Shown here: positions 27,231 through 34,876 of the stretch, one piece after another
How the letters are laid out: each line of letters opens with the position of its first letter
Position numbering within the stretch: position 1 is the stretch's first letter
Source of the DNA: a virus
Reading direction: 5' to 3' (one strand)
DNA length: 64,000 bases
IMG/VR virus record: IMGVR_UViG_3300025137_000025
Location: 1-64,000 of that record
Notes under the pieces: model-generated
Told to the model about the DNA's origin: nothing
What the model saw: the letters and a program-made list of their open reading frames with translations, nothing else
Database searches by the model: none
Program-made: the position numbers and the translations under genes

Positions 27231-27701
27231 TTATATAGTGTCAAAGTCTATATAAGAAATTTCTACTTTTTCCCCCTTTTCAAGCACCTCTGCTACTTCT
27301 GCGTACACTCTTCTGTATGCTGTAGTAGAACTTCCTACAAACCCGTCGGATTTTATGTTTTCTGTTTGTGTGTTACCCAAGAGTAGACACCCACTAGTAT
27401 CATCATCATCATTACCGCAATGGATAAGAATATACTCAAACCCAGGTATATCACGAACCCACAACATCCCTTTATGAATATCAGCAAACCTTTCAGAGTA
27501 TTTAGAATTAAAACCCCCAACAGTTCTAAGCGTAATTTCATATGTCCCAGCAGGGATACGCGTTTCGTGCATGACTTTCGTATCTCTGTATTCATCCTCT
27601 AATGTGTAGCATAAAAATTCTCTTTTTTTGTCTGTAACATTAAATAACAGACCAAGAGTACTGTCTTTCTGCGAGCTAAACCTTACAACCTCTAGCTGCA
27701 T
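27231..27701 (-). CDS. DUF5675-family protein, putative endolysin
   Basis: Likely start MQLEVVRF (27701); STLG.L...CYTLED...TRIPAGTY...VRDIPGFEYILIHCGN...DTSGCLLLG (His...Cys pair). Confidence 0.75.
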   Translation of the reverse strand: MQLEVVRFSSQKDSTLGLLFNVTDKKREFLCYTLEDEYRDTKVMHETRIPAGTYEITLRTVGGFNSKYSERFADIHKGMLWVRDIPGFEYILIHCGNDDDDTSGCLLLGNTQTENIKSDGFVGSSTTAYRRVYAEVAEVLEKGEKVEISYIDFDTI

Positions 27702-27742
27702 AGTTTTACGGTTAATTGGGTACCTTAAATTCATAGTAGTCA

Positions 27743-27762
27743 CAAATATAGTTATATATTAG
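27743..27762. promoter_or_regulatory. Back-to-back promoter elements (TATATTTG minus; TATATTAG plus)
   Basis: CAAATATA at 27743-27750; TATATTAG at 27755-27762, just before GTG 27767. Confidence 0.45.
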
Positions 27763-27766
27763 CTGT

Positions 27767-29005
27767 GTGAAAAAATTATTTCTTCTCGTATTGCTCGCCC
27801 AAGTCATACTTGTGGGATACGCTAATATAGCTATAAAAACCATTGTATTCCCTGGGTGCACTGACCCCTTTGCACTTAATTACAATGAGGATGCTACTGA
27901 AGATGATGGCACCTGCGTCTATTCTATAGGCCCAGATCCAGTCATACTTAATATAACTGTTACGGATGAAAGCTGCCAAGAGTACGAGACAGGAGTCCTG
28001 TCTTCTTACGTATACGAGGCTACTATAGTAAACATAGGAAATGAAGCAGTTACAAACTTTTGCCTTAGCGACTTTTTAGGTACTACGTTTAATTGTTTTA
28101 ACGGGGTTTCTAATCTTGCTGTTTGGATTCAACCGGGGGATACTATAATTGTAACGGGCAACATTAATAGTATCGGCACATGGGCAGCAGGGCAAGGAAA
28201 CTACATGAGCGTAACGAGTGTTCCTGGTGAGATTATTACAGGTAATAATAACTTTGTTTTTTACATGCCTGAGGGAGTGGATTGCATAGAGCCTCCTGAT
28301 CCCGAGTATTGCGATACTTTACTGGTTTACGTGACTGAGATAGATACGCTTATTGAGTATGTAGAACTTCCTGCTGATACAGTGACTGTGCTGCAGTTAG
28401 ACACGTTGTACATCCCTTGGGAGTATTACTTCTACGATACCGTCTATGTAGATGTCTTTGATACTATTTACATTAACATTTTAGACACAGTTATTGTTAC
28501 AGAGATTGATATTGAGTACGTTTATGTAACAGACACATTAGAAGTCTTTACAACAGACACATTGTATATCACGCAAGTAGATACTCTAATGCAAGAAGTC
28601 GTTGTGTACGAATACATCTACAACACAGATACCATCTATGATGTAGTATATAATGAGATATTAGTAGACTGCAGTACTGGTCTCCCTTGTATGGGTGGGT
28701 TTGTTGGGGAAGACTGCCGATCCGTATTTGTCCCTAACGCGTTTTCTCCTAACAATGATGGTATTAATGACACCTTCTATGCAGTATCTCAATCTTACAC
28801 ATGTTGGAGAGACTGGAATTTAGTTGTTTATAACCGTTGGGGAAATATAATATGGAGTACTACTGACCCCGAAGTGCAGTGGGAAGGAGAAACTGAAGCC
28901 GGTACTCATTATGCCGCAGATGGGATGTACGTATGGACTTTGATTGCAAGAGGGTATTCCGGAGATGTTTTAGACCTCAGTGGGAACGTTACACTCTTTC
29001 GTTAA
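27767..29005 (+). CDS. Secreted protein with T9SS type-B (gliding-motility-associated) C-terminal domain
   Basis: Signal peptide; GCTDP..LNYN..A..DDGTC repeat; DT[ILV] array; C-terminus FVPNAFSPNNDGINDTF...VYNRWG...WEG...DGMYVW...GNVTLFR. Confidence 0.88.
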   Translation: MKKLFLLVLLAQVILVGYANIAIKTIVFPGCTDPFALNYNEDATEDDGTCVYSIGPDPVILNITVTDESCQEYETGVLSSYVYEATIVNIGNEAVTNFCLSDFLGTTFNCFNGVSNLAVWIQPGDTIIVTGNINSIGTWAAGQGNYMSVTSVPGEIITGNNNFVFYMPEGVDCIEPPDPEYCDTLLVYVTEIDTLIEYVELPADTVTVLQLDTLYIPWEYYFYDTVYVDVFDTIYINILDTVIVTEIDIEYVYVTDTLEVFTTDTLYITQVDTLMQEVVVYEYIYNTDTIYDVVYNEILVDCSTGLPCMGGFVGEDCRSVFVPNAFSPNNDGINDTFYAVSQSYTCWRDWNLVVYNRWGNIIWSTTDPEVQWEGETEAGTHYAADGMYVWTLIARGYSGDVLDLSGNVTLFR

Positions 29006-29373
29006 AAGTCGCTTAGTATAATTTCGTCGATTGCATCTTGCACATCTGTTTCTGTGGCTTCCATTGTCATCATAATGTTAGCCTGAAATCGTGTTATTTC
29101 TTCTCCCTCGTTAAATACTACGATAGTGGGAACAACTACAATTTTGTGTCTTTGCTGCATATCCGGAGAAGATGCAATATCTACTCTCCCAGTTTCACAA
29201 TCATTTAATTGTTCTATCCAAGGAACAGCGTTCTGCTGATTGAAGTTGGCGTTGAATTCTACTACGCACACTCCAGACGTGCAGATTTTAGCTTCTTCTA
29301 CAGGCGGCGTACTTACGTAAACAGCTGTTGAAAATAAAAGCAGGGATAATATAACAGAGATTAAGGTTTTCAT
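29002..29373 (-). CDS. Exported thioredoxin-fold protein lacking CxxC
   Basis: N-terminal signal/TM; VVEFNANFN in place of V.DF.A.WC..C; RVDI, IVVVPTIVVFNEGEEITRF. Confidence 0.7.
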   Translation of the reverse strand: MKTLISVILSLLLFSTAVYVSTPPVEEAKICTSGVCVVEFNANFNQQNAVPWIEQLNDCETGRVDIASSPDMQQRHKIVVVPTIVVFNEGEEITRFQANIMMTMEATETDVQDAIDEIILSDF

Positions 29374-29380
29374 TTCTCAT

Positions 29381-29665
29381 TTATTTAAGTTGATCTATTT
29401 TCTCCTCAATCCGTTTGATGTCTTCTTTTATTTCTGTGACATCTTCTTGTGTAGTCATAATAGTTTGACGAACTAATTTGTCTTTCATGTCAAACTCCAT
29501 GCGTGTGATTTCAGGAGCTAGTGGCTCTGGGAGTTTTTTTGCTTCTTCTATATCTGCTTGCAGTACAAACCACATGCTTATGAGCGCCCCCAAACCCGTA
29601 ACCGCTAACCCAATTGTTTTAAGATCTAAAGTAATCTTTGTGCTCTCATTAATATGCTGTGCCAT
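29381..29665 (-). CDS. Single-TM coiled-coil membrane protein (i-spanin-like topology)
   Basis: Likely start MAQHINE (29665); TM IGLAVTGLGALISMWFVL, then heptad coiled coil. Confidence 0.55.
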   Translation of the reverse strand: MAQHINESTKITLDLKTIGLAVTGLGALISMWFVLQADIEEAKKLPEPLAPEITRMEFDMKDKLVRQTIMTTQEDVTEIKEDIKRIEEKIDQLK

Positions 29666-30708
29666 TATAGTAATATGTAGTTTAAACCGATAGAGAAGTC
29701 GTGCCACTCTCTGTTCCAGTATCTATTGTACCTGCCCTCTGCAAATACTCCTAAGCTTTTGGTTACTTTAGAACCAAAGACTATTCCAGCACCAGTGTCT
29801 ATCCACTGGCCCCCGTTTACAAAGTTATGGTACGAAAATTTGTTTCCGTTGTTTAAGTGATAGGGCATAATGTTGCCCCAAGAGTGTATCCAAAAATCTT
29901 TTGTGTAATGATAAAAATCAAACCCAATTACAGCGGAATGCATCCATATACTTTGAAGCTCCGCACGTCTGTCTGCTACGTAGGTATCTAGCACTTCTGG
30001 TATTACTACTTGTTCCCAGATTGCAGGATCGTTTGCTACGAGGCCCCCGTTTTGATCAAAAAATTCTCCTGTATTAACATCTATACTGTACCCTTCTTGT
30101 ATTGCGAGGGCGGTATAATGTAGTTGGTTATTTGGGAGAACCCACTGCTGCAAAGGGTCGTACCCGTAAGGTTCTGATATTCTTTGTACGATGCCGAGGT
30201 TTAAGGAAAACTTCTTCCCAATCTTAAGTCGTGCTCGTTGTGACGACTCAAAGTATTTTACGTCAGCAAACCCATCTTGTAGATACTCTGCTTTTACTAA
30301 CCACCAATTGTCTACGTATCTAACAAAGTAGTCTTGGTCTAAAAAGTTCCGCCCCTGCTGCCTCCTCCAGTCCGCTTCCGCCAGGAACTCGAACCCGTCA
30401 TATTTTCCAACGGTAGCAGCGTCACCATAAGTTTTTTCTGTTCCGTTGTAAAATACGTTGGCTCTGTTTTCATACCCAAACCTAGCAATCTTTCTAACTC
30501 CCAGAGTAAATGAATAGTCAAACGGAGTTTTAATTACACTTGTTTGTAGCGCTCCTGTAGCAACAGAGTATACTTCTTGATCGGAAACGGAGTTTCCGCC
30601 GTTTACTGCAGCGTAGAAAGTAGCACGTCTAAGAACCTTCTTGTAGAAGTCACTTTGTCCCCAGCTAATTGTGGGGGCCAATAATAATAGTGCTATAATG
30701 TATCTCAT
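29665..30708 (-). CDS. Putative outer-membrane beta-barrel protein
   Basis: Signal peptide ending WG|Q; alternating aromatic beta strands; C-terminal GVFAEGRY...FSIGLNYILL beta-signal-like strand. Confidence 0.7.
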   Translation of the reverse strand: MRYIIALLLLAPTISWGQSDFYKKVLRRATFYAAVNGGNSVSDQEVYSVATGALQTSVIKTPFDYSFTLGVRKIARFGYENRANVFYNGTEKTYGDAATVGKYDGFEFLAEADWRRQQGRNFLDQDYFVRYVDNWWLVKAEYLQDGFADVKYFESSQRARLKIGKKFSLNLGIVQRISEPYGYDPLQQWVLPNNQLHYTALAIQEGYSIDVNTGEFFDQNGGLVANDPAIWEQVVIPEVLDTYVADRRAELQSIWMHSAVIGFDFYHYTKDFWIHSWGNIMPYHLNNGNKFSYHNFVNGGQWIDTGAGIVFGSKVTKSLGVFAEGRYNRYWNREWHDFSIGLNYILL

Positions 30709-32828
30709 TCTCGTACAATTGTTTGTTTAACAACTCGACCGTTGTATTCCACTACTACGATATACACTCCTGCGGTAGGGAGTTCTATTTGTGAATTAAT
30801 TGTTGTTATTAGTTCTTGCCCTATAGAGTTATAAATAGTGCTTACACTACTCGGGGGAGCTTGAATATTTATGGTTCTATTTGTTGGGTTTGGGTATATG
30901 CTTATTCTTTCAAAGAGCTCGGGGATGTTTGTTACCCCGTCTCCACAGTACTCATACATTTCTACACACACGTTGTCCCAATTAGTTTCACAGCAGTAGG
31001 GGTCAATACTAATAACCCATGAGTAGCACTGGTCGTTTCCCCAGTACGGATCGCCTGGCTCTCCTATACATCCTGCATCATATAAACACTGCTCATTATC
31101 TGCAGTATTAGCATCTGCATTAAAGTTGTAAGCGTCTGTGTCCATGCACCCCTCTAGCACATCAATACAACCGCCCCCATCAGCGTTTGCTTCTTCGTCG
31201 TAGTTAATTGCATCTGGATTAGTACATCCGTAAATGAAGGCTACGCAACTTCCGTTGTCTGTGTTTGCTTCCGCGTTGTAGTTAAACTGTGTGGGATCGG
31301 TACAACCAAAGACAATCTGTTCGCAGTCCCCACTATCAGTAGCAATAGGGTTGTAATTAAATGCTGTAGCATCCATGCATCCAACTATTTCTAACTCATC
31401 GCAAACTCCATCGTTGTCCAAATCTGTAACACACTGATTATCACAGGTATAGAACTCTATGGGAAGTGTGCAGTCTGATTCTACATTTGCATCAGGATTG
31501 TAGTCACATGCAATTGGGTTTGTGCACCCAACTACAGCGTCAATGCAGAAGTCTTGACAATAAGGAACACCTTCGTATTTAAATGGGAACTTATTTATTG
31601 GGTCAGTCCAAGGGTTACTTCCAGCTTCCATAAATATTCCAGTAGGACTGGTGAAGAAGAATCCGCATTGGGCGGCGGTAGTTTCAGCGTTACCTCCTGT
31701 AAAGAACATTACTTCTATAGGTTCTCCTGAGTACAGTGGGATAAGGAACTGCTCTTCTGTCCCATCATTAGGACCCATTTGGAATGGGCCAAATATCTCA
31801 TCCCCTTGCACAACACCTAACCAGCTCCCAAACCATCCGTCACCTGCTCCGTCTGTTATTGTAAGGAGTGTCATACATAATGACTGTGTTTCTAGTGTGT
31901 TAGCGTCGGGGTTAAAATTAACTGCGGTAGAGTCTATGCAGCCCAGGATCACCTCGGTTAGGCAAGACTCGTCATCTATATCTGCAAGTGGGTTGTACTC
32001 AGTAAAGTTAGGGTCTGTGCATCCCTCTAGTACATCAGTTGTGCATGCATCTACAGCAATAGGCTCGCTGGAGATAGTGGAGTATTGCAAAGTATCTCCT
32101 ATATAGTATAGCGTATCTCCACATAAAGTAGTTATTGAGATATTACCATCAACCCCACCATAGCAGCTCCCGCACATCCCATCACCAAAAGTGTCTAACA
32201 CTTCTAAGACAAGAGTGTCCCCAACAGCAACGCACACATCATGTATTACTGGGATTCCTACAGAAGTATACCCACTGCCCGATAGTATCTCTACTTCATT
32301 AGACTGCAGTCCCCAACTAATCTCGCCTGCGTATGTGTCTGGGGTTACTGTTACAATAATGGTGGTCTCTCCATTGTCACAAGGTTGGGGCGGATAAACA
32401 CAAGGTTGAGAAGCATTAGCCCAAGGATTGTAGTCTACTGCTATTGGGTCAGTACATCCAAAGATGGGTGGGGGACAAGGAAGTACCTCAAATGGGAGTA
32501 TTAGTTCTGGGCTATTGAAGTCGTATACTGCTGTATCTAATTGGCAGGAATTACTAAGGGCAAACCACCCTTCCCCAAACCCACAGCAGATCCCGTCCCC
32601 AAAGCTGTCGTATATGATAAACTCGTAGTTACCTGGGGAGAGAAAGACAAGCTGCTCGTTGTATGAGTTACTTGCGTAAGTGCTTGACTCTTCTATAACT
32701 TCCTCGTCCTGTACGATTACCCAGCTAGTCTCGAGTGCGTACTGGTCTGTTTGAAGTTCCACAATTACCCAGCTCTGTCCCAGCACTATGCTTGGGAGGA
32801 GCAATAACAGTGCTAGCAGCGATCTCAT
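30705..32828 (-). CDS. Secreted Cys/Asp-rich protein with T9SS type-A C-terminal sorting domain
   Basis: Signal peptide ending LG|Q; 8 GC[TMI][DN]..A.[ND][YF]N..A repeats; repeated D.Y..E.SW...D[ST]FGDG domains; C-terminus ISIYPNPT..TINI...IYNSIGQ...LPTAGVYIVVV...KQTIVRE. Confidence 0.9.
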   Translation of the reverse strand: MRSLLALLLLLPSIVLGQSWVIVELQTDQYALETSWVIVQDEEVIEESSTYASNSYNEQLVFLSPGNYEFIIYDSFGDGICCGFGEGWFALSNSCQLDTAVYDFNSPELILPFEVLPCPPPIFGCTDPIAVDYNPWANASQPCVYPPQPCDNGETTIIVTVTPDTYAGEISWGLQSNEVEILSGSGYTSVGIPVIHDVCVAVGDTLVLEVLDTFGDGMCGSCYGGVDGNISITTLCGDTLYYIGDTLQYSTISSEPIAVDACTTDVLEGCTDPNFTEYNPLADIDDESCLTEVILGCIDSTAVNFNPDANTLETQSLCMTLLTITDGAGDGWFGSWLGVVQGDEIFGPFQMGPNDGTEEQFLIPLYSGEPIEVMFFTGGNAETTAAQCGFFFTSPTGIFMEAGSNPWTDPINKFPFKYEGVPYCQDFCIDAVVGCTNPIACDYNPDANVESDCTLPIEFYTCDNQCVTDLDNDGVCDELEIVGCMDATAFNYNPIATDSGDCEQIVFGCTDPTQFNYNAEANTDNGSCVAFIYGCTNPDAINYDEEANADGGGCIDVLEGCMDTDAYNFNADANTADNEQCLYDAGCIGEPGDPYWGNDQCYSWVISIDPYCCETNWDNVCVEMYEYCGDGVTNIPELFERISIYPNPTNRTINIQAPPSSVSTIYNSIGQELITTINSQIELPTAGVYIVVVEYNGRVVKQTIVRE

Positions 32829-33257
32829 TTTTTTGTTTTTTCAATCGTCCTTCCTGCAAAGTATGCACCGAACGCGGTTAGCATTAGTATTTGCAATAAG
32901 TCGATGTAACTGTCCTTGACGTTGAATGGTAAGCTGTCCATGCTGTCGAACACCATAGTTAGGCAGAACATTACCATTAATGTGATGAGGGTAACTGGTC
33001 GTATTAGTTTGGCGAGTTTAATATCGCTCCCCATATCAGCCTTCCACCGTTCCGTTACGTTCTCTTGGAATCGCACCTCTGCGTCTATCTTTGCCTGCGC
33101 CTCGGCAGGGTCGATATCAGGCTCTTTATCTAGGAGGTTTTTTACAAGTCCCAGTGCTCCTTGGTCGGGTAATAGGTCACCCACGGTACCAAGAATGCTA
33201 GGAGCCTTTTCCTTTAACCAAGCACCTAACTTGGTGTCCTTAATCTTCTTGCTCATA
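32825..33257 (-). CDS. Holin (3TM / GTA-holin-like)
   Basis: Likely start MSKKIKDTK; RWKADMGSD..LAKLIRP, two TM segments, GAYFAGRTIEK C-terminus. Confidence 0.8.
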
Positions 33258-33330
33258 CGACTAGTTAGTTTGTCGTAAAAGTAATCAATTAAAACCAAAC
33301 ATAATTATCCCCCTTAGGTTTTTATTAAAC

Positions 33331-34681: not shown

Positions 34682-34876
34682 ATGAAAGAAAGATTATTCC
34701 TACGAGCAATGCTCATTATTCTTACTTGTGCACTCTTAGCATCGGTAACAAGTTGTTCAAGCGCAGGGCACACAACATCAACGTGTCCTGCGTACAGTTT
34801 CACTAATCAAAATTGTAATGCAAGTAAAGACATACAATATCAAGAAGACCATATGGACGATCGAGGACTTGAATGA
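34682..34876 (+). CDS. Small lipoprotein
   Basis: Basic N-region, hydrophobic core, lipobox VTS|C, then CPAY. Confidence 0.6.
   Translation: MKERLFLRAMLIILTCALLASVTSCSSAGHTTSTCPAYSFTNQNCNASKDIQYQEDHMDDRGLE

What the first reader, a model, noticed from the sequence alone, without database searches (positions are those of the whole stretch)
27231..33257. Phage-encoded T9SS cargo / host-surface module nested inside the lysis cassette
Seen: between the holin (33257) and the DUF5675 endolysin (27701) lie five exported or membrane proteins. They are a type-A T9SS CTD protein (YPNP...GVY) with 8 GCTD repeats, an OM beta-barrel, a TM/coiled-coil protein, a Trx-fold protein and a type-B CTD protein (PNAFSPNNDG..D...YNRWG). 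Established: these CTDs route proteins through the Bacteroidota type IX secretion system to the cell surface, and type-B cargoes generally need a cognate PorP/SprF-type barrel. Inference: a lytic phage uses the host T9SS to coat the infected cell. Possible purposes are receptor masking/superinfection exclusion, aggregation or particle attachment before lysis, grazer avoidance, or jamming T9SS/gliding. I know of no characterised phage system of this kind.
Basis: partly seen in the sequence, partly recalled or inferred. Interest (0 to 1): 0.9.

Follow-up and report, generated by a model that had tools for sequence, protein, structure and literature searches.

The report
Phage envelope trio plus T9SS cargo
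An uncultured marine crAss-like phage carries, in one operon with its holin, two proteins tagged for the host's type IX secretion system. It also carries a phage-only set of outer-membrane barrel, inner-membrane coiled coil and inactive thioredoxin, which is common in ocean phages, can occur without the tagged proteins, and has never been studied.

Summary
Both T9SS sorting-domain HMMs match above curated cut-offs, and the type-A tail folds like solved T9SS CTDs. Contigs from independent marine samples bridge every gene junction, so this is not a misassembly.

The barrel, the 94-aa TM coiled coil and the CxxC-less thioredoxin fold form a phage-only trio. The trio's genes have at least 165 (barrel) and 535 (thioredoxin fold) relatives in IMG/VR contigs, and the trio sits beside at least three unrelated terminase types. 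In one complete 65.7-kb phage the trio sits directly behind the holin and the genome has no T9SS cargo. A more distant barrel clade keeps only a TM coiled-coil neighbour. The barrel shows no PorP/SprF or PorV signal.

The type-A cargo is a near-constant passenger (78/80 and 48/51 loci). The type-B cargo is sporadic (5/30 records) and hypervariable.

My best reading is that the trio acts on the envelope at lysis, possibly replacing spanins, while the cargo is exported through the host T9SS.

Phage T9SS cargo is already published (Bellas 2020; de Jonge 2019). This scan has also reported the same cassette on other genomes. The trio itself is undescribed, and nothing here has been tested experimentally.

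The parts
32825..33256 (-). Holin (143 aa from the ATG at 33256; the listed ORF starts at a TTG at 33298). It has two C-terminal TM segments. Its stop overlaps the g707 start (ATGA).
   Evidence: phrog_3427 holin, E 7e-22. 70-97% identical homologues lie directly upstream of the cassette in 17 of 37 loci. The L143 holin is 145 aa.
30705..32828 (-). T9SS type-A cargo, 707 aa. Parts in order: Sec leader ending G|Q; three DxxGDG beta-sandwich domains; 8 small Cys-bounded GCTD..NYN modules; a Cys-rich stretch (583-639); CTD (640-707).
   Evidence: TIGR04183 29.2/35.1 bits against cut-off 23. The CTD fold matches RgpB CTD 5ag9_B (Z 10.2, rmsd 1.7 A over 64 aa) and NucA CTD 8glk_D. AF2 mean pLDDT 75. 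More than 4000 relatives, most carrying PF18962.
29665..30708 (-). Phage-only outer-membrane beta-barrel, 347 aa, with a leader ending G|Q. Translationally coupled on both sides.
   Evidence: AF2 pLDDT 65; VIA Z 12.1 to CymA and 11.5 to OmpG. Profile search finds 378 clusters, all from metagenomes or viruses. 165 IMG/VR relatives. No match in 50,697 GenBank phage records.
29381..29665 (-). 94-aa bitopic inner-membrane protein: short N-terminus, one TM, then a ~55-aa periplasmic helix or coiled coil. It is the most conserved gene of the set.
   Evidence: 50 relatives of 93-95 aa (four listed from an upstream ATG) among 54 loci. Mean column identity 82%. Nearest Atlas clusters are 100% viral. 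Only weak PHROG hits.
29002..29373 (-). Exported thioredoxin-fold protein without CxxC, 123 aa.
   Evidence: Weak Trx HMM hits below cut-offs. 28 of 28 homologues lack CxxC and keep FNA.[FW]N..N.V, Cys59, VVPT and a terminal Phe. At least 535 IMG/VR relatives.
27767..29005 (+). T9SS type-B cargo, 412 aa, on the opposite strand. Parts in order: leader; one GCTD module; variable head; D-T-[ILV] repeat stalk (183-290); CHU_C sorting domain (321-393). Its stop overlaps the g123 stop (convergent genes).
   Evidence: PF13585 56.2 bits, TIGR04131 35.3. Present in only 9 of 80 loci and 5 of 30 records. Contigs break and variant contigs pile up at 27.9-28.5 kb.
27231..27701 (-). DUF5675 protein (156 aa from Met15), the candidate cell-wall peptidase or endolysin.
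   Evidence: PF18925 92.4 bits, phrog_1501, weak Tlde1 hit. An H..SGC motif is visible in the sequence. DUF5675 is described as C82 (YkuD)-like in bioRxiv 10.64898/2026.04.11.717860. No other lysin family was found in the genome.

Best explanation
The stretch is a real, conserved part of the late operon of a marine crAss-like phage of Bacteroidota. It has two layers.

Layer 1 is a phage-only envelope trio, translationally coupled to the holin: an outer-membrane beta-barrel, a 94-aa inner-membrane protein with a periplasmic coiled coil, and a redox-dead periplasmic thioredoxin fold. It most likely acts on the envelope at the end of infection. My preferred guess is that it takes the place of the missing spanins in disrupting the outer membrane, or that it controls that step.

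Layer 2 is passengers tagged for the host T9SS. One is a lectin-like, Cys-rich type-A protein that almost always sits between holin and barrel. In this phage and its close relatives there is also a hypervariable type-B protein on the other strand. After Sec export these would fold in the periplasm and be passed by the host T9SS to the surface of the infected cell or its debris.

Shown: gene content, sorting domains, folds, conservation, linkage, and the separability of trio and cargo. Inferred: T9SS export, the role in lysis, and any benefit to the phage.
For: - CTD HMMs are above cut-off and the type-A tail has a CTD fold.
- The leader's G|Q site is invariant in 36 cargo homologues. This fits the Bacteroidota Q-rule, which I cite from my own knowledge.
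- The operon is tight. ATGA overlaps join holin to g707 and g707 to g347, and there is a 1-nt overlap between g347 and g94.
- The trio is present in 51 of 51 loci with full flanks. Cargo is present in 48 of 51 and 78 of 80.
- The trio occurs without cargo directly behind an 81%-identical holin in the complete genome L143, which has no TIGR04183 hit.
- The barrel plus a TM coiled coil also occurs in CTD-free, Trx-free phages.
- The cassette sits beside three unrelated TerL types.
- It is followed directly by an amidase or endolysin in L023, L024, L072-74 and L077-79.
- The holin is directly upstream in 17 of 37 loci.
- No lipoprotein o-spanin was found in the cassette.
- g94 has i-spanin topology.
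Against: - Linkage to lysis genes is only partial. In the portal-linked lineage the cassette lies among head genes, with a soluble phrog_1084 protein upstream.
- The periplasmic part of g94 (~55 aa) is short for a spanin.
- No known spanin uses a beta-barrel.
- Permuted gene orders still keep the cargo next to the trio (L060, L083, L084). The barrel has diverged far more (34-38% identity) than TMcc (62-81%) and Trx (56-60%) where cargo is absent. This hints that barrel and cargo are functionally tied.
- There are no expression or localisation data.
Confidence: 0.45

Rival explanations
1. All five genes form one self-contained surface-display module. The barrel is the dedicated shuttle or anchor for the T9SS cargo, acting like PorP/SprF or PorV. 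TMcc and the dead Trx help the Cys-rich cargo to fold or dock. The purpose is to coat the infected cell, for receptor masking, exclusion or adhesion.
For: - One type-A cargo per record in 30 of 30 barrel-bearing records.
- Cargo is adjacent in 78 of 80 and 48 of 51 loci, often with ATGA coupling.
- Three different gene orders keep the four genes together.
- The C-terminal ~270 aa of the cargo are conserved while the heads vary.
- The barrel diverges most where cargo is missing.
Against: - The complete genome L143 has holin-barrel-TMcc-Trx and no CTD protein.
- A distant barrel clade lies in CTD-free genomes.
- There is no PorP/SprF HMM signal, and PorV is no closer than generic barrels.
- The type-B gene is absent from 25 of 30 records.
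Confidence: 0.25
2. The trio is a superinfection-exclusion or receptor-masking device. It would be an outer-membrane protein complex that alters the receptor landscape, as lambda Lom does with LamB. It would be unrelated to lysis and sit beside the holin only because both are late genes.
For: Phage-encoded OMP barrels are widespread and have been proposed to modify receptors (bioRxiv 10.64898/2026.10.24.761521). BFVD lists many phage OMP-like models. The cassette lies among structural genes in one lineage.
Against: The family is highly conserved (barrel 60-98% and TMcc 82% mean identity across TerL-unrelated phages), which is unlike arms-race proteins. An inner-membrane coiled coil and a periplasmic partner are not needed for masking. 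No PADLOC family matches.
Confidence: 0.15
3. The CTD-like tails are only Ig-like structural domains of virion or decoration proteins, and nothing is secreted.
For: Ig-like domains are common on phage particles. The Pfam score for g707 is below the gathering threshold.
Against: Both proteins have cleavable-looking Sec leaders and many cysteines (39 in g707), which fits periplasmic folding. The NCBIfam cut-offs are passed. The closest folds are T9SS CTDs bound in the SprA translocon.
Confidence: 0.05
4. The block is a host-derived misassembly or chimera.
For: None found.
Against: The block is syntenic in 80 contigs from many samples, flanked by TerL and PolA. G+C is even at 0.39-0.44. Independent contigs bridge all junctions. 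The family is viral-only.
Confidence: 0.01

Closest known systems
Phage-encoded T9SS type-A cargo genes of 'Cryophage' (Bellas et al. 2020, PMC7468147) and T9SS sorting-domain ORFs of crAss-like cluster 2 (de Jonge et al. 2019, PMC6949934)
   Same: These are phage ORFs with a T9SS C-terminal sorting domain and variable passenger heads. The papers propose hijack of the host T9SS for surface change or superinfection exclusion. One case is in crAss-like phages, next to the head module.
   Different: Their cargo carries enzyme or PA14/BACON domains and lies in flexible islands. Neither paper describes a conserved barrel, TM coiled coil and dead-Trx trio, holin coupling, or a type-B cargo. Neither has been tested experimentally.
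Two-component spanins (lambda Rz/Rz1 type)
   Same: Both have a small inner-membrane protein with an N-terminal TM and a periplasmic coiled coil, encoded with an outer-membrane partner in the lysis cassette of a phage of a diderm host. No other spanin candidate is present here.
   Different: The outer-membrane partner here is a ~330-aa beta-barrel, not a small lipoprotein. There is a third periplasmic Trx-fold component. The coiled coil is short (~55 aa). There is no sequence similarity, and function is untested.
SprB-SprF, and PorP/SprF-like barrels encoded next to type-B CTD cargo in Flavobacterium johnsoniae (recalled from my own knowledge of the field)
   Same: An outer-membrane barrel gene sits next to a T9SS cargo gene.
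   Different: The phage barrel does not match PF11751 or any NCBIfam T9SS model. Its constant neighbour is type-A cargo, not type-B. It also occurs without any cargo.
Phage-encoded OMP beta-barrels (lambda Lom; 1,603 OMPs in huge phages, bioRxiv 10.64898/2026.10.24.761521)
   Same: A phage gene for an outer-membrane beta-barrel with a signal peptide, thought to change the infected cell's envelope.
   Different: This is a different family with no Pfam match, probably 12-14 strands. It lies in 50-80-kb phages and is locked to a TM coiled coil and usually to a dead Trx and a T9SS cargo.

Membership tests
T9SS type-A sorting domain (TIGR04183 / PF18962) | HMM match above the curated cut-off at the extreme C-terminus | tested here: met
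   TIGR04183 29.2 bits (protein) and 35.1 bits (six-frame) against cut-off 23, at residues 644-705. Pfam PF18962 scores only 21.4 against 27 for this protein but 32-35 in homologues.
T9SS type-A sorting domain (TIGR04183 / PF18962) | Ig-like beta-sandwich fold of solved CTDs | tested here: met
   Model residues 640-707 match 5ag9_B (RgpB CTD) at Z 10.2, rmsd 1.7 A over 64 aa. 8glk_D gives Foldseek prob 1.00 and TMt 0.75. 8gl6_D, 8glj_D and 8qb1_A give Z 7.8-8.3.
T9SS type-A sorting domain (TIGR04183 / PF18962) | N-terminal Sec signal peptide on the same protein | tested here: met
   MRSLLALLLLLPSIVLG|QSW, judged by inspection. Q18 is invariant in 36 homologues. SignalP was not available.
T9SS type-A sorting domain (TIGR04183 / PF18962) | Secretion depends on the host T9SS | not testable with these tools
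   Needs expression in wild type versus gldK, sprA or porV mutants.
T9SS type-B sorting domain (TIGR04131 / PF13585 CHU_C) | HMM match above the curated cut-off | tested here: met
   PF13585 56.2 bits (cut-off 27). TIGR04131 35.3 bits (cut-off 35, only just). Six-frame hit 59.3 bits.
T9SS type-B sorting domain (TIGR04131 / PF13585 CHU_C) | A cognate PorP/SprF-family gene nearby (usual, not obligatory) | tested here: not met
   No PF11751 match in the 78.6-kb genome at E<=1. Any partner would have to be a host protein or the unrelated phage barrel.
PorP/SprF or PorV (T9SS outer-membrane shuttle or anchor barrels), for g347 | Sequence-family membership (PF11751 and NCBIfam T9SS models) | tested here: not met
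   No Pfam or NCBIfam family matches g347 at E<=0.1 except a chance-level SH3_5 hit.
PorP/SprF or PorV (T9SS outer-membrane shuttle or anchor barrels), for g347 | Specific structural similarity to PorV | tested here: inconclusive
   6h3i_F scores Z 7.6, below many unrelated barrels (CymA 12.1, OmpG 11.5). Model pLDDT is only 65.
Two-component spanin | i-spanin: N-terminal TM plus periplasmic coiled coil | tested here: met
   g94 has a TM at about residues 17-36, followed by a conserved helical region, PEITRMEFDMKDQLVRQTIMTTQEDV...KIDxLK. This shows topology only.
Two-component spanin | o-spanin: small outer-membrane lipoprotein encoded with or within the i-spanin gene | tested here: not met
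   A lipobox scan of all six frames finds no same-strand candidate in 27-33.3 kb. The only credible lipoprotein is at 34682-34876(+).
Two-component spanin | Lies in the lysis cassette | tested here: met
   Here it lies between the holin and DUF5675. In relatives the holin is upstream in 17 of 37 loci, and an endolysin or amidase family matches 7 of the 61 downstream-neighbour ORFs scanned. The trio follows the holin directly in L143.
Thioredoxin (PF00085 / TIGR01068), for g123 | CxxC active site | tested here: not met
   0 of 28 homologues have CxxC; the position reads FNA.[FW]N. HMM scores are below cut-offs: 18.9 against 23.5, and 22.3 against 96.8.
Holin phrog_3427 | Profile match and small membrane protein | tested here: met
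   E 7e-22 over residues 65-157. Two hydrophobic segments are visible in the sequence. Holin activity was not tested.
DUF5675 (PF18925), candidate endolysin | Pfam match above the gathering score | tested here: met
   92.4 bits against 26.7. Peptidoglycan hydrolase activity is not tested. The C82-like fold is reported only in a preprint.
Crassvirales | TerL related to crAss-like phages | tested here: met
   42% identity over 99% of TerL to uncultured crAss-like phages; 160 records hit, from phages of Bacteroides, Flavobacterium and Cellulophaga. No formal taxonomy was run.

The most novel reading that the evidence does not exclude
The barrel, TM coiled coil and dead thioredoxin trio is a new, three-part, beta-barrel-based device by which phages of marine Bacteroidota breach or remodel the outer membrane at lysis, in place of spanins. 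The T9SS cargo riding in the same operon docks on it and dresses the dying cell or its membrane debris with a swappable lectin-like coat, for example to stop progeny sticking to debris or to glue cells to particles.
Probability: 0.3. Interest if true: 0.85.

Novelty: new variant of a known kind. Interest (0 to 1): 0.62.

Why it matters
Flavobacteria-type Bacteroidota are major degraders of algal matter in the sea, and crAss-like and other phages are a main cause of their death. How these phages get through the outer membrane at lysis is unknown, and canonical spanins are not evident here.

A conserved, virus-only, holin-coupled envelope set gives a concrete candidate to test. Its genes have hundreds of relatives among ocean phage contigs, and this phage's copy was held in runs of 19 studies.

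The T9SS-tagged passengers would be a clear case of a virulent phage using a host secretion system to change the cell surface. Their swappable heads suggest selection at the cell surface.

If instead the trio proves to be only a cargo anchor, it would be a new, T9SS-independent way to hold secreted proteins on the Bacteroidota surface.

Tried and rejected
- Complex prediction on barrel (18-347), Trx (23-123) and TMcc (36-94): score 0.01, no verdict. This is not evidence either way.
- The look-up of sequencing runs listed no RNA holder, so expression is untested.
The 230-300-kb contigs that carry longer cargo homologues could therefore not be inspected.
- PDB sequence searches with g707, g170 and g412 found nothing.
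- No PADLOC family matched any of the genes.
- GenBank phage records: no DNA match and no protein match to barrel or Trx. g707 matched only one 59-aa GCTD stretch. g412 matched only through its CTD, in three uncultured phages.
- Scans with the distant barrels P0143 and P0058 found no viral loci.
- The L089 tail protein gave no host clue.
- The sigma-70 promoter and terminator scan was at chance level.
- I considered that the dead Trx is a chaperone that travels only with the Cys-rich cargo. It is absent from the CTD-free L089 clade. I rejected the idea because L143, L139 and L142 keep the Trx without cargo.
- Per-window comparison of cargo-linked and cargo-less barrels showed divergence spread over the whole protein, with no single candidate cargo-binding region.
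- Misassembly was rejected.
- The N-terminal cargo domains gave only weak fold matches (C2/ferlin, and CBM 2xhh at Z 6.5). No activity can be assigned to them.

Full report
**What the window is.** The window is the first 64 kb of a 78.6-kb IMG/VR virus record that CheckV rates 95% complete. Its large terminase is 42% identical over 99% of its length to gut crAss-like phages. The 160 matching records come from phages of Bacteroides, Flavobacterium and Cellulophaga. No integrase was found. Near-identical DNA of the finding is held in 20 public runs from 19 studies, all marine or seawater metagenomes. This is therefore an uncultured marine crAss-like phage, almost certainly of a Bacteroidota host.

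**The observation.**
- The holin (32825-33256, minus strand) matches phrog_3427 at E 7e-22.
- g707 has a Sec-type leader, eight GC[TIM][DN]..NYN modules and 39 cysteines. Its C-terminal tail passes the NCBIfam type-A model: TIGR04183 at 29.2 bits on the protein and 35.1 on the six-frame hit, cut-off 23. It falls short of Pfam's threshold (21.4 against 27), but homologues in other phages pass it (32-35 bits).
- g412 passes both type-B models: PF13585 at 56.2 against 27, and TIGR04131 at 35.3 against 35.
- Each sorting domain occurs once in the genome.
- DUF5675 is a strong Pfam match (92.4 bits). A 2026 preprint groups this domain with C82/YkuD-type peptidases. No Amidase_2, SLT or phage-lysozyme gene exists in the genome, so it is the only candidate lysin.
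- The "108-aa" TM protein most likely starts at the ATG at 29665, giving the 94 aa seen in 50 relatives.
- The genes are tightly coupled. There are ATGA overlaps between holin and g707 and between g707 and g347, and a one-base overlap between g347 and g94.

**Structure.**
- The barrel model has moderate confidence (pLDDT 65, pTM 0.60). It is a generic outer-membrane beta-barrel, with VIA Z 12.1 to CymA and 11.5 to OmpG. PorV of the T9SS translocon scores only Z 7.6, lower than many unrelated barrels.
- The g707 model (pLDDT 75) shows three beta-sandwich domains, small disulfide modules and a C-terminal domain. That C-terminal domain superposes on solved T9SS CTDs: RgpB CTD 5ag9_B at Z 10.2 and rmsd 1.7 A over 64 residues, and substrate CTDs bound in the F. 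johnsoniae SprA translocon (8glk_D, Foldseek probability 1.00, TMt 0.75; 8gl6_D and 8glj_D at Z 8.0-8.3).
- The N-terminal domains give only weak C2- or CBM-like matches, so "lectin-like" is a guess.

**Is it a misassembly?** No.
- The barrel has 165 relatives in IMG/VR. In 80 fetched loci the order cargo-barrel-TMcc-Trx is kept in 77-79, with TerL, PolA and the small late genes alongside in the close relatives.
- Contigs from independent runs X2 and X4 bridge every junction from TerL to PolA.
- G+C is even across the region.

**The conserved unit.**
- The four genes g707, g347, g94 and g123 travel together in phages whose terminase is only about 20% identical to this one (TerL phrog_6681 with the portal next door). 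They also do so in 122-166-kb phages, where an endolysin follows directly.
- The type-B gene is present in only 9 of 80 loci and 5 of 30 records. DUF5675 is present in 6 of 80 loci.
- All 30 records examined have exactly one type-A ORF, the one beside the barrel.
- A search seeded with the Trx fold found at least 535 IMG/VR relatives. Of 51 loci with full flanks, all have barrel, TMcc and Trx, and 48 have the cargo.
- The three exceptions include L143, a 65.7-kb genome rated 100% complete. Its order is holin (81% identical), barrel (36% identical, E 9e-79), TMcc (77%) and Trx (56%), again with an ATGA overlap. The whole genome has no TIGR04183 hit.
- A still more distant barrel clade (25-28% identity, E 1e-20 to 1e-26) sits in 49-53-kb phages. 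Neither type-A nor type-B CTDs, nor the Trx fold, were found in the records searched. There the barrel is flanked by a 232-aa TM coiled-coil protein and an 86-aa coiled-coil ORF in 7-8 loci.

So the barrel plus TM coiled coil is the core, the dead Trx is a frequent third member, and the T9SS cargo is a very frequent but dispensable fourth. It also rejects my own interim idea that the Trx is a cargo-only chaperone.

**What the trio is not.**
- The barrel matches no Pfam or NCBIfam family.
- No PorP/SprF gene exists in the genome, even at E<=1.
- The barrel family is virus-only. It has 378 clusters in 1.84 billion proteins, all from metagenome, Tara or viral sources. The 30 nearest Atlas clusters are 100% viral.
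- Only five hits were found in 185,579 species genomes. All are marine MAG contigs of mutually inconsistent taxa, which are probably mis-binned phage contigs.
- Neither barrel nor Trx matches any of 50,697 GenBank phage records.
- No PADLOC family matches.

**Linkage to lysis.** In this phage the set lies between the holin and the only candidate lysin. Across relatives the link is real but partial.
- The ORF just upstream of the cargo is a phrog_3427 holin in 17 of 37 loci. In 13 it is a soluble phrog_1084 protein.
- Endolysin or amidase families match 7 of the 61 downstream-neighbour ORFs scanned. Examples are PGRP-type amidases in L023 and L024 and a PG-binding amidase in L073.
- In the portal-linked lineage the downstream neighbours are very basic ~100-aa proteins.
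- No lipoprotein that could serve as an o-spanin lies in the cassette.
- g94 has the topology of an i-spanin, but its periplasmic part is short.

**Evidence that still ties cargo to trio.**
- Three different gene orders keep all four genes adjacent: cargo-barrel-TMcc-Trx; barrel-TMcc-Trx-cargo in L060 and L083; and TMcc..Trx-cargo-barrel in L084.
- The C-terminal ~270 residues of the cargo are conserved while the heads are swapped.
- Where cargo is missing, the barrel has diverged far more than TMcc and Trx.

I therefore keep the anchor model as a serious rival at 0.25.

**Most likely mechanism.**
- *Shown:* an operon of exported proteins covering the inner membrane, periplasm, outer membrane and, through the CTDs, the cell surface.
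- *Inferred:* late in infection the phage places the trio across the envelope, and I guess that it completes or times outer-membrane rupture. g707 is Sec-exported, folds with many disulfides and is passed by the host T9SS to the surface. g412 does the same in this lineage, relying on a host PorP/SprF-type partner or on none.

g412 evolves fastest. It is 89%, 59% and 40% identical in relatives whose barrel is 97%, 94% and 83% identical. Assemblies from other samples break in its head region, where variant contigs pile up. This resembles the variable T9SS cargo islands of "Cryophage".

**Comparison with what is known.** Phage-encoded T9SS cargo, and the idea that phages hijack the host system for surface change or superinfection exclusion, were published by Bellas et al. 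2020 (PMC7468147). De Jonge et al. 2019 saw T9SS sorting-domain ORFs next to the head module of crAss-like cluster 2 (PMC6949934). Phage OMP barrels in general are now catalogued (bioRxiv 10.64898/2026.10.24.761521), without mention of T9SS or of this family. I found no paper on the trio. This scan has reported the same cassette on at least eight other genomes.

**Verdict.** The T9SS-cargo element is a new variant of a published kind. The holin-coupled trio is the more novel part and could be a new kind of lysis or envelope device, but nothing has been tested. Interest 0.62.

Noticed in passing
window 34682-34876 (+): A 64-aa ORF with a convincing lipoprotein signal (MKERLFLRAMLIILTCALLASVTS|C). 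It lies on the early or replication side, 1.4 kb from the holin, and is the only credible lipoprotein in the window. It could be an exclusion lipoprotein or an unlinked o-spanin. No PADLOC hit.
   Followed up: partly
window 28313-28636 (g412 residues 183-290): 12 D-T-[ILV] motifs in g412, against 2.1 +/- 1.4 in 2000 shuffles (none reached 12). The motif fits the Bacteroidota O-glycosylation sequon D-(S/T)-(A/I/L/V/M/T), which I cite from my own knowledge. Homologues with other heads keep 12-18 of them.
   Followed up: partly
window 27900-28500: Contigs of four independent marine runs break in the g412 head region, and extra variant contigs raise the depth (64-106 against 28 in X2). This is a population-level hypervariable spot.
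   Followed up: partly
window 29002-29005: The stop codons of g412 (+) and g123 (-) overlap, so the genes converge with no room for a terminator. The late transcript running on to DUF5675 would be antisense to g412. This suggests g412 is expressed at a different time.
   Followed up: no
L021:9697-12335 (-): In a relative, the opposite-strand slot after the Trx gene holds a 302-aa type-B CTD protein plus a 577-aa Peptidase_M43 (pappalysin-like) protein. The slot seems to collect exported proteins.
   Followed up: no
L034-L081, first ORF after the Trx gene: In the portal-linked lineage the cassette is followed by very basic 93-119-aa proteins, rich in K and R, some with CxC ends. Their function is unknown. 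They could be DNA-binding or internal proteins.
   Followed up: no
L045, L048, L050, L054 between barrel and TMcc: Extra basic ORFs of about 100-125 aa are inserted inside the trio, so the cassette tolerates insertions.
   Followed up: no
L082-L086 (genome contigs): Contigs carrying the barrel are binned into MAGs labelled Nitrosopelagicus, Parvibaculum, Rickettsiales and Maricaulis. These are most likely phage contigs mis-binned into unrelated genomes.
   Followed up: no
window 30705-32828 and 29665-30708 (leaders): Predicted signal-peptidase sites leave an N-terminal Gln (G|QSW, G|QSD). Q18 is invariant in 36 cargo homologues. This fits the Bacteroidota 'Q-rule' and gives an independent hint of the host phylum.
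   Followed up: partly
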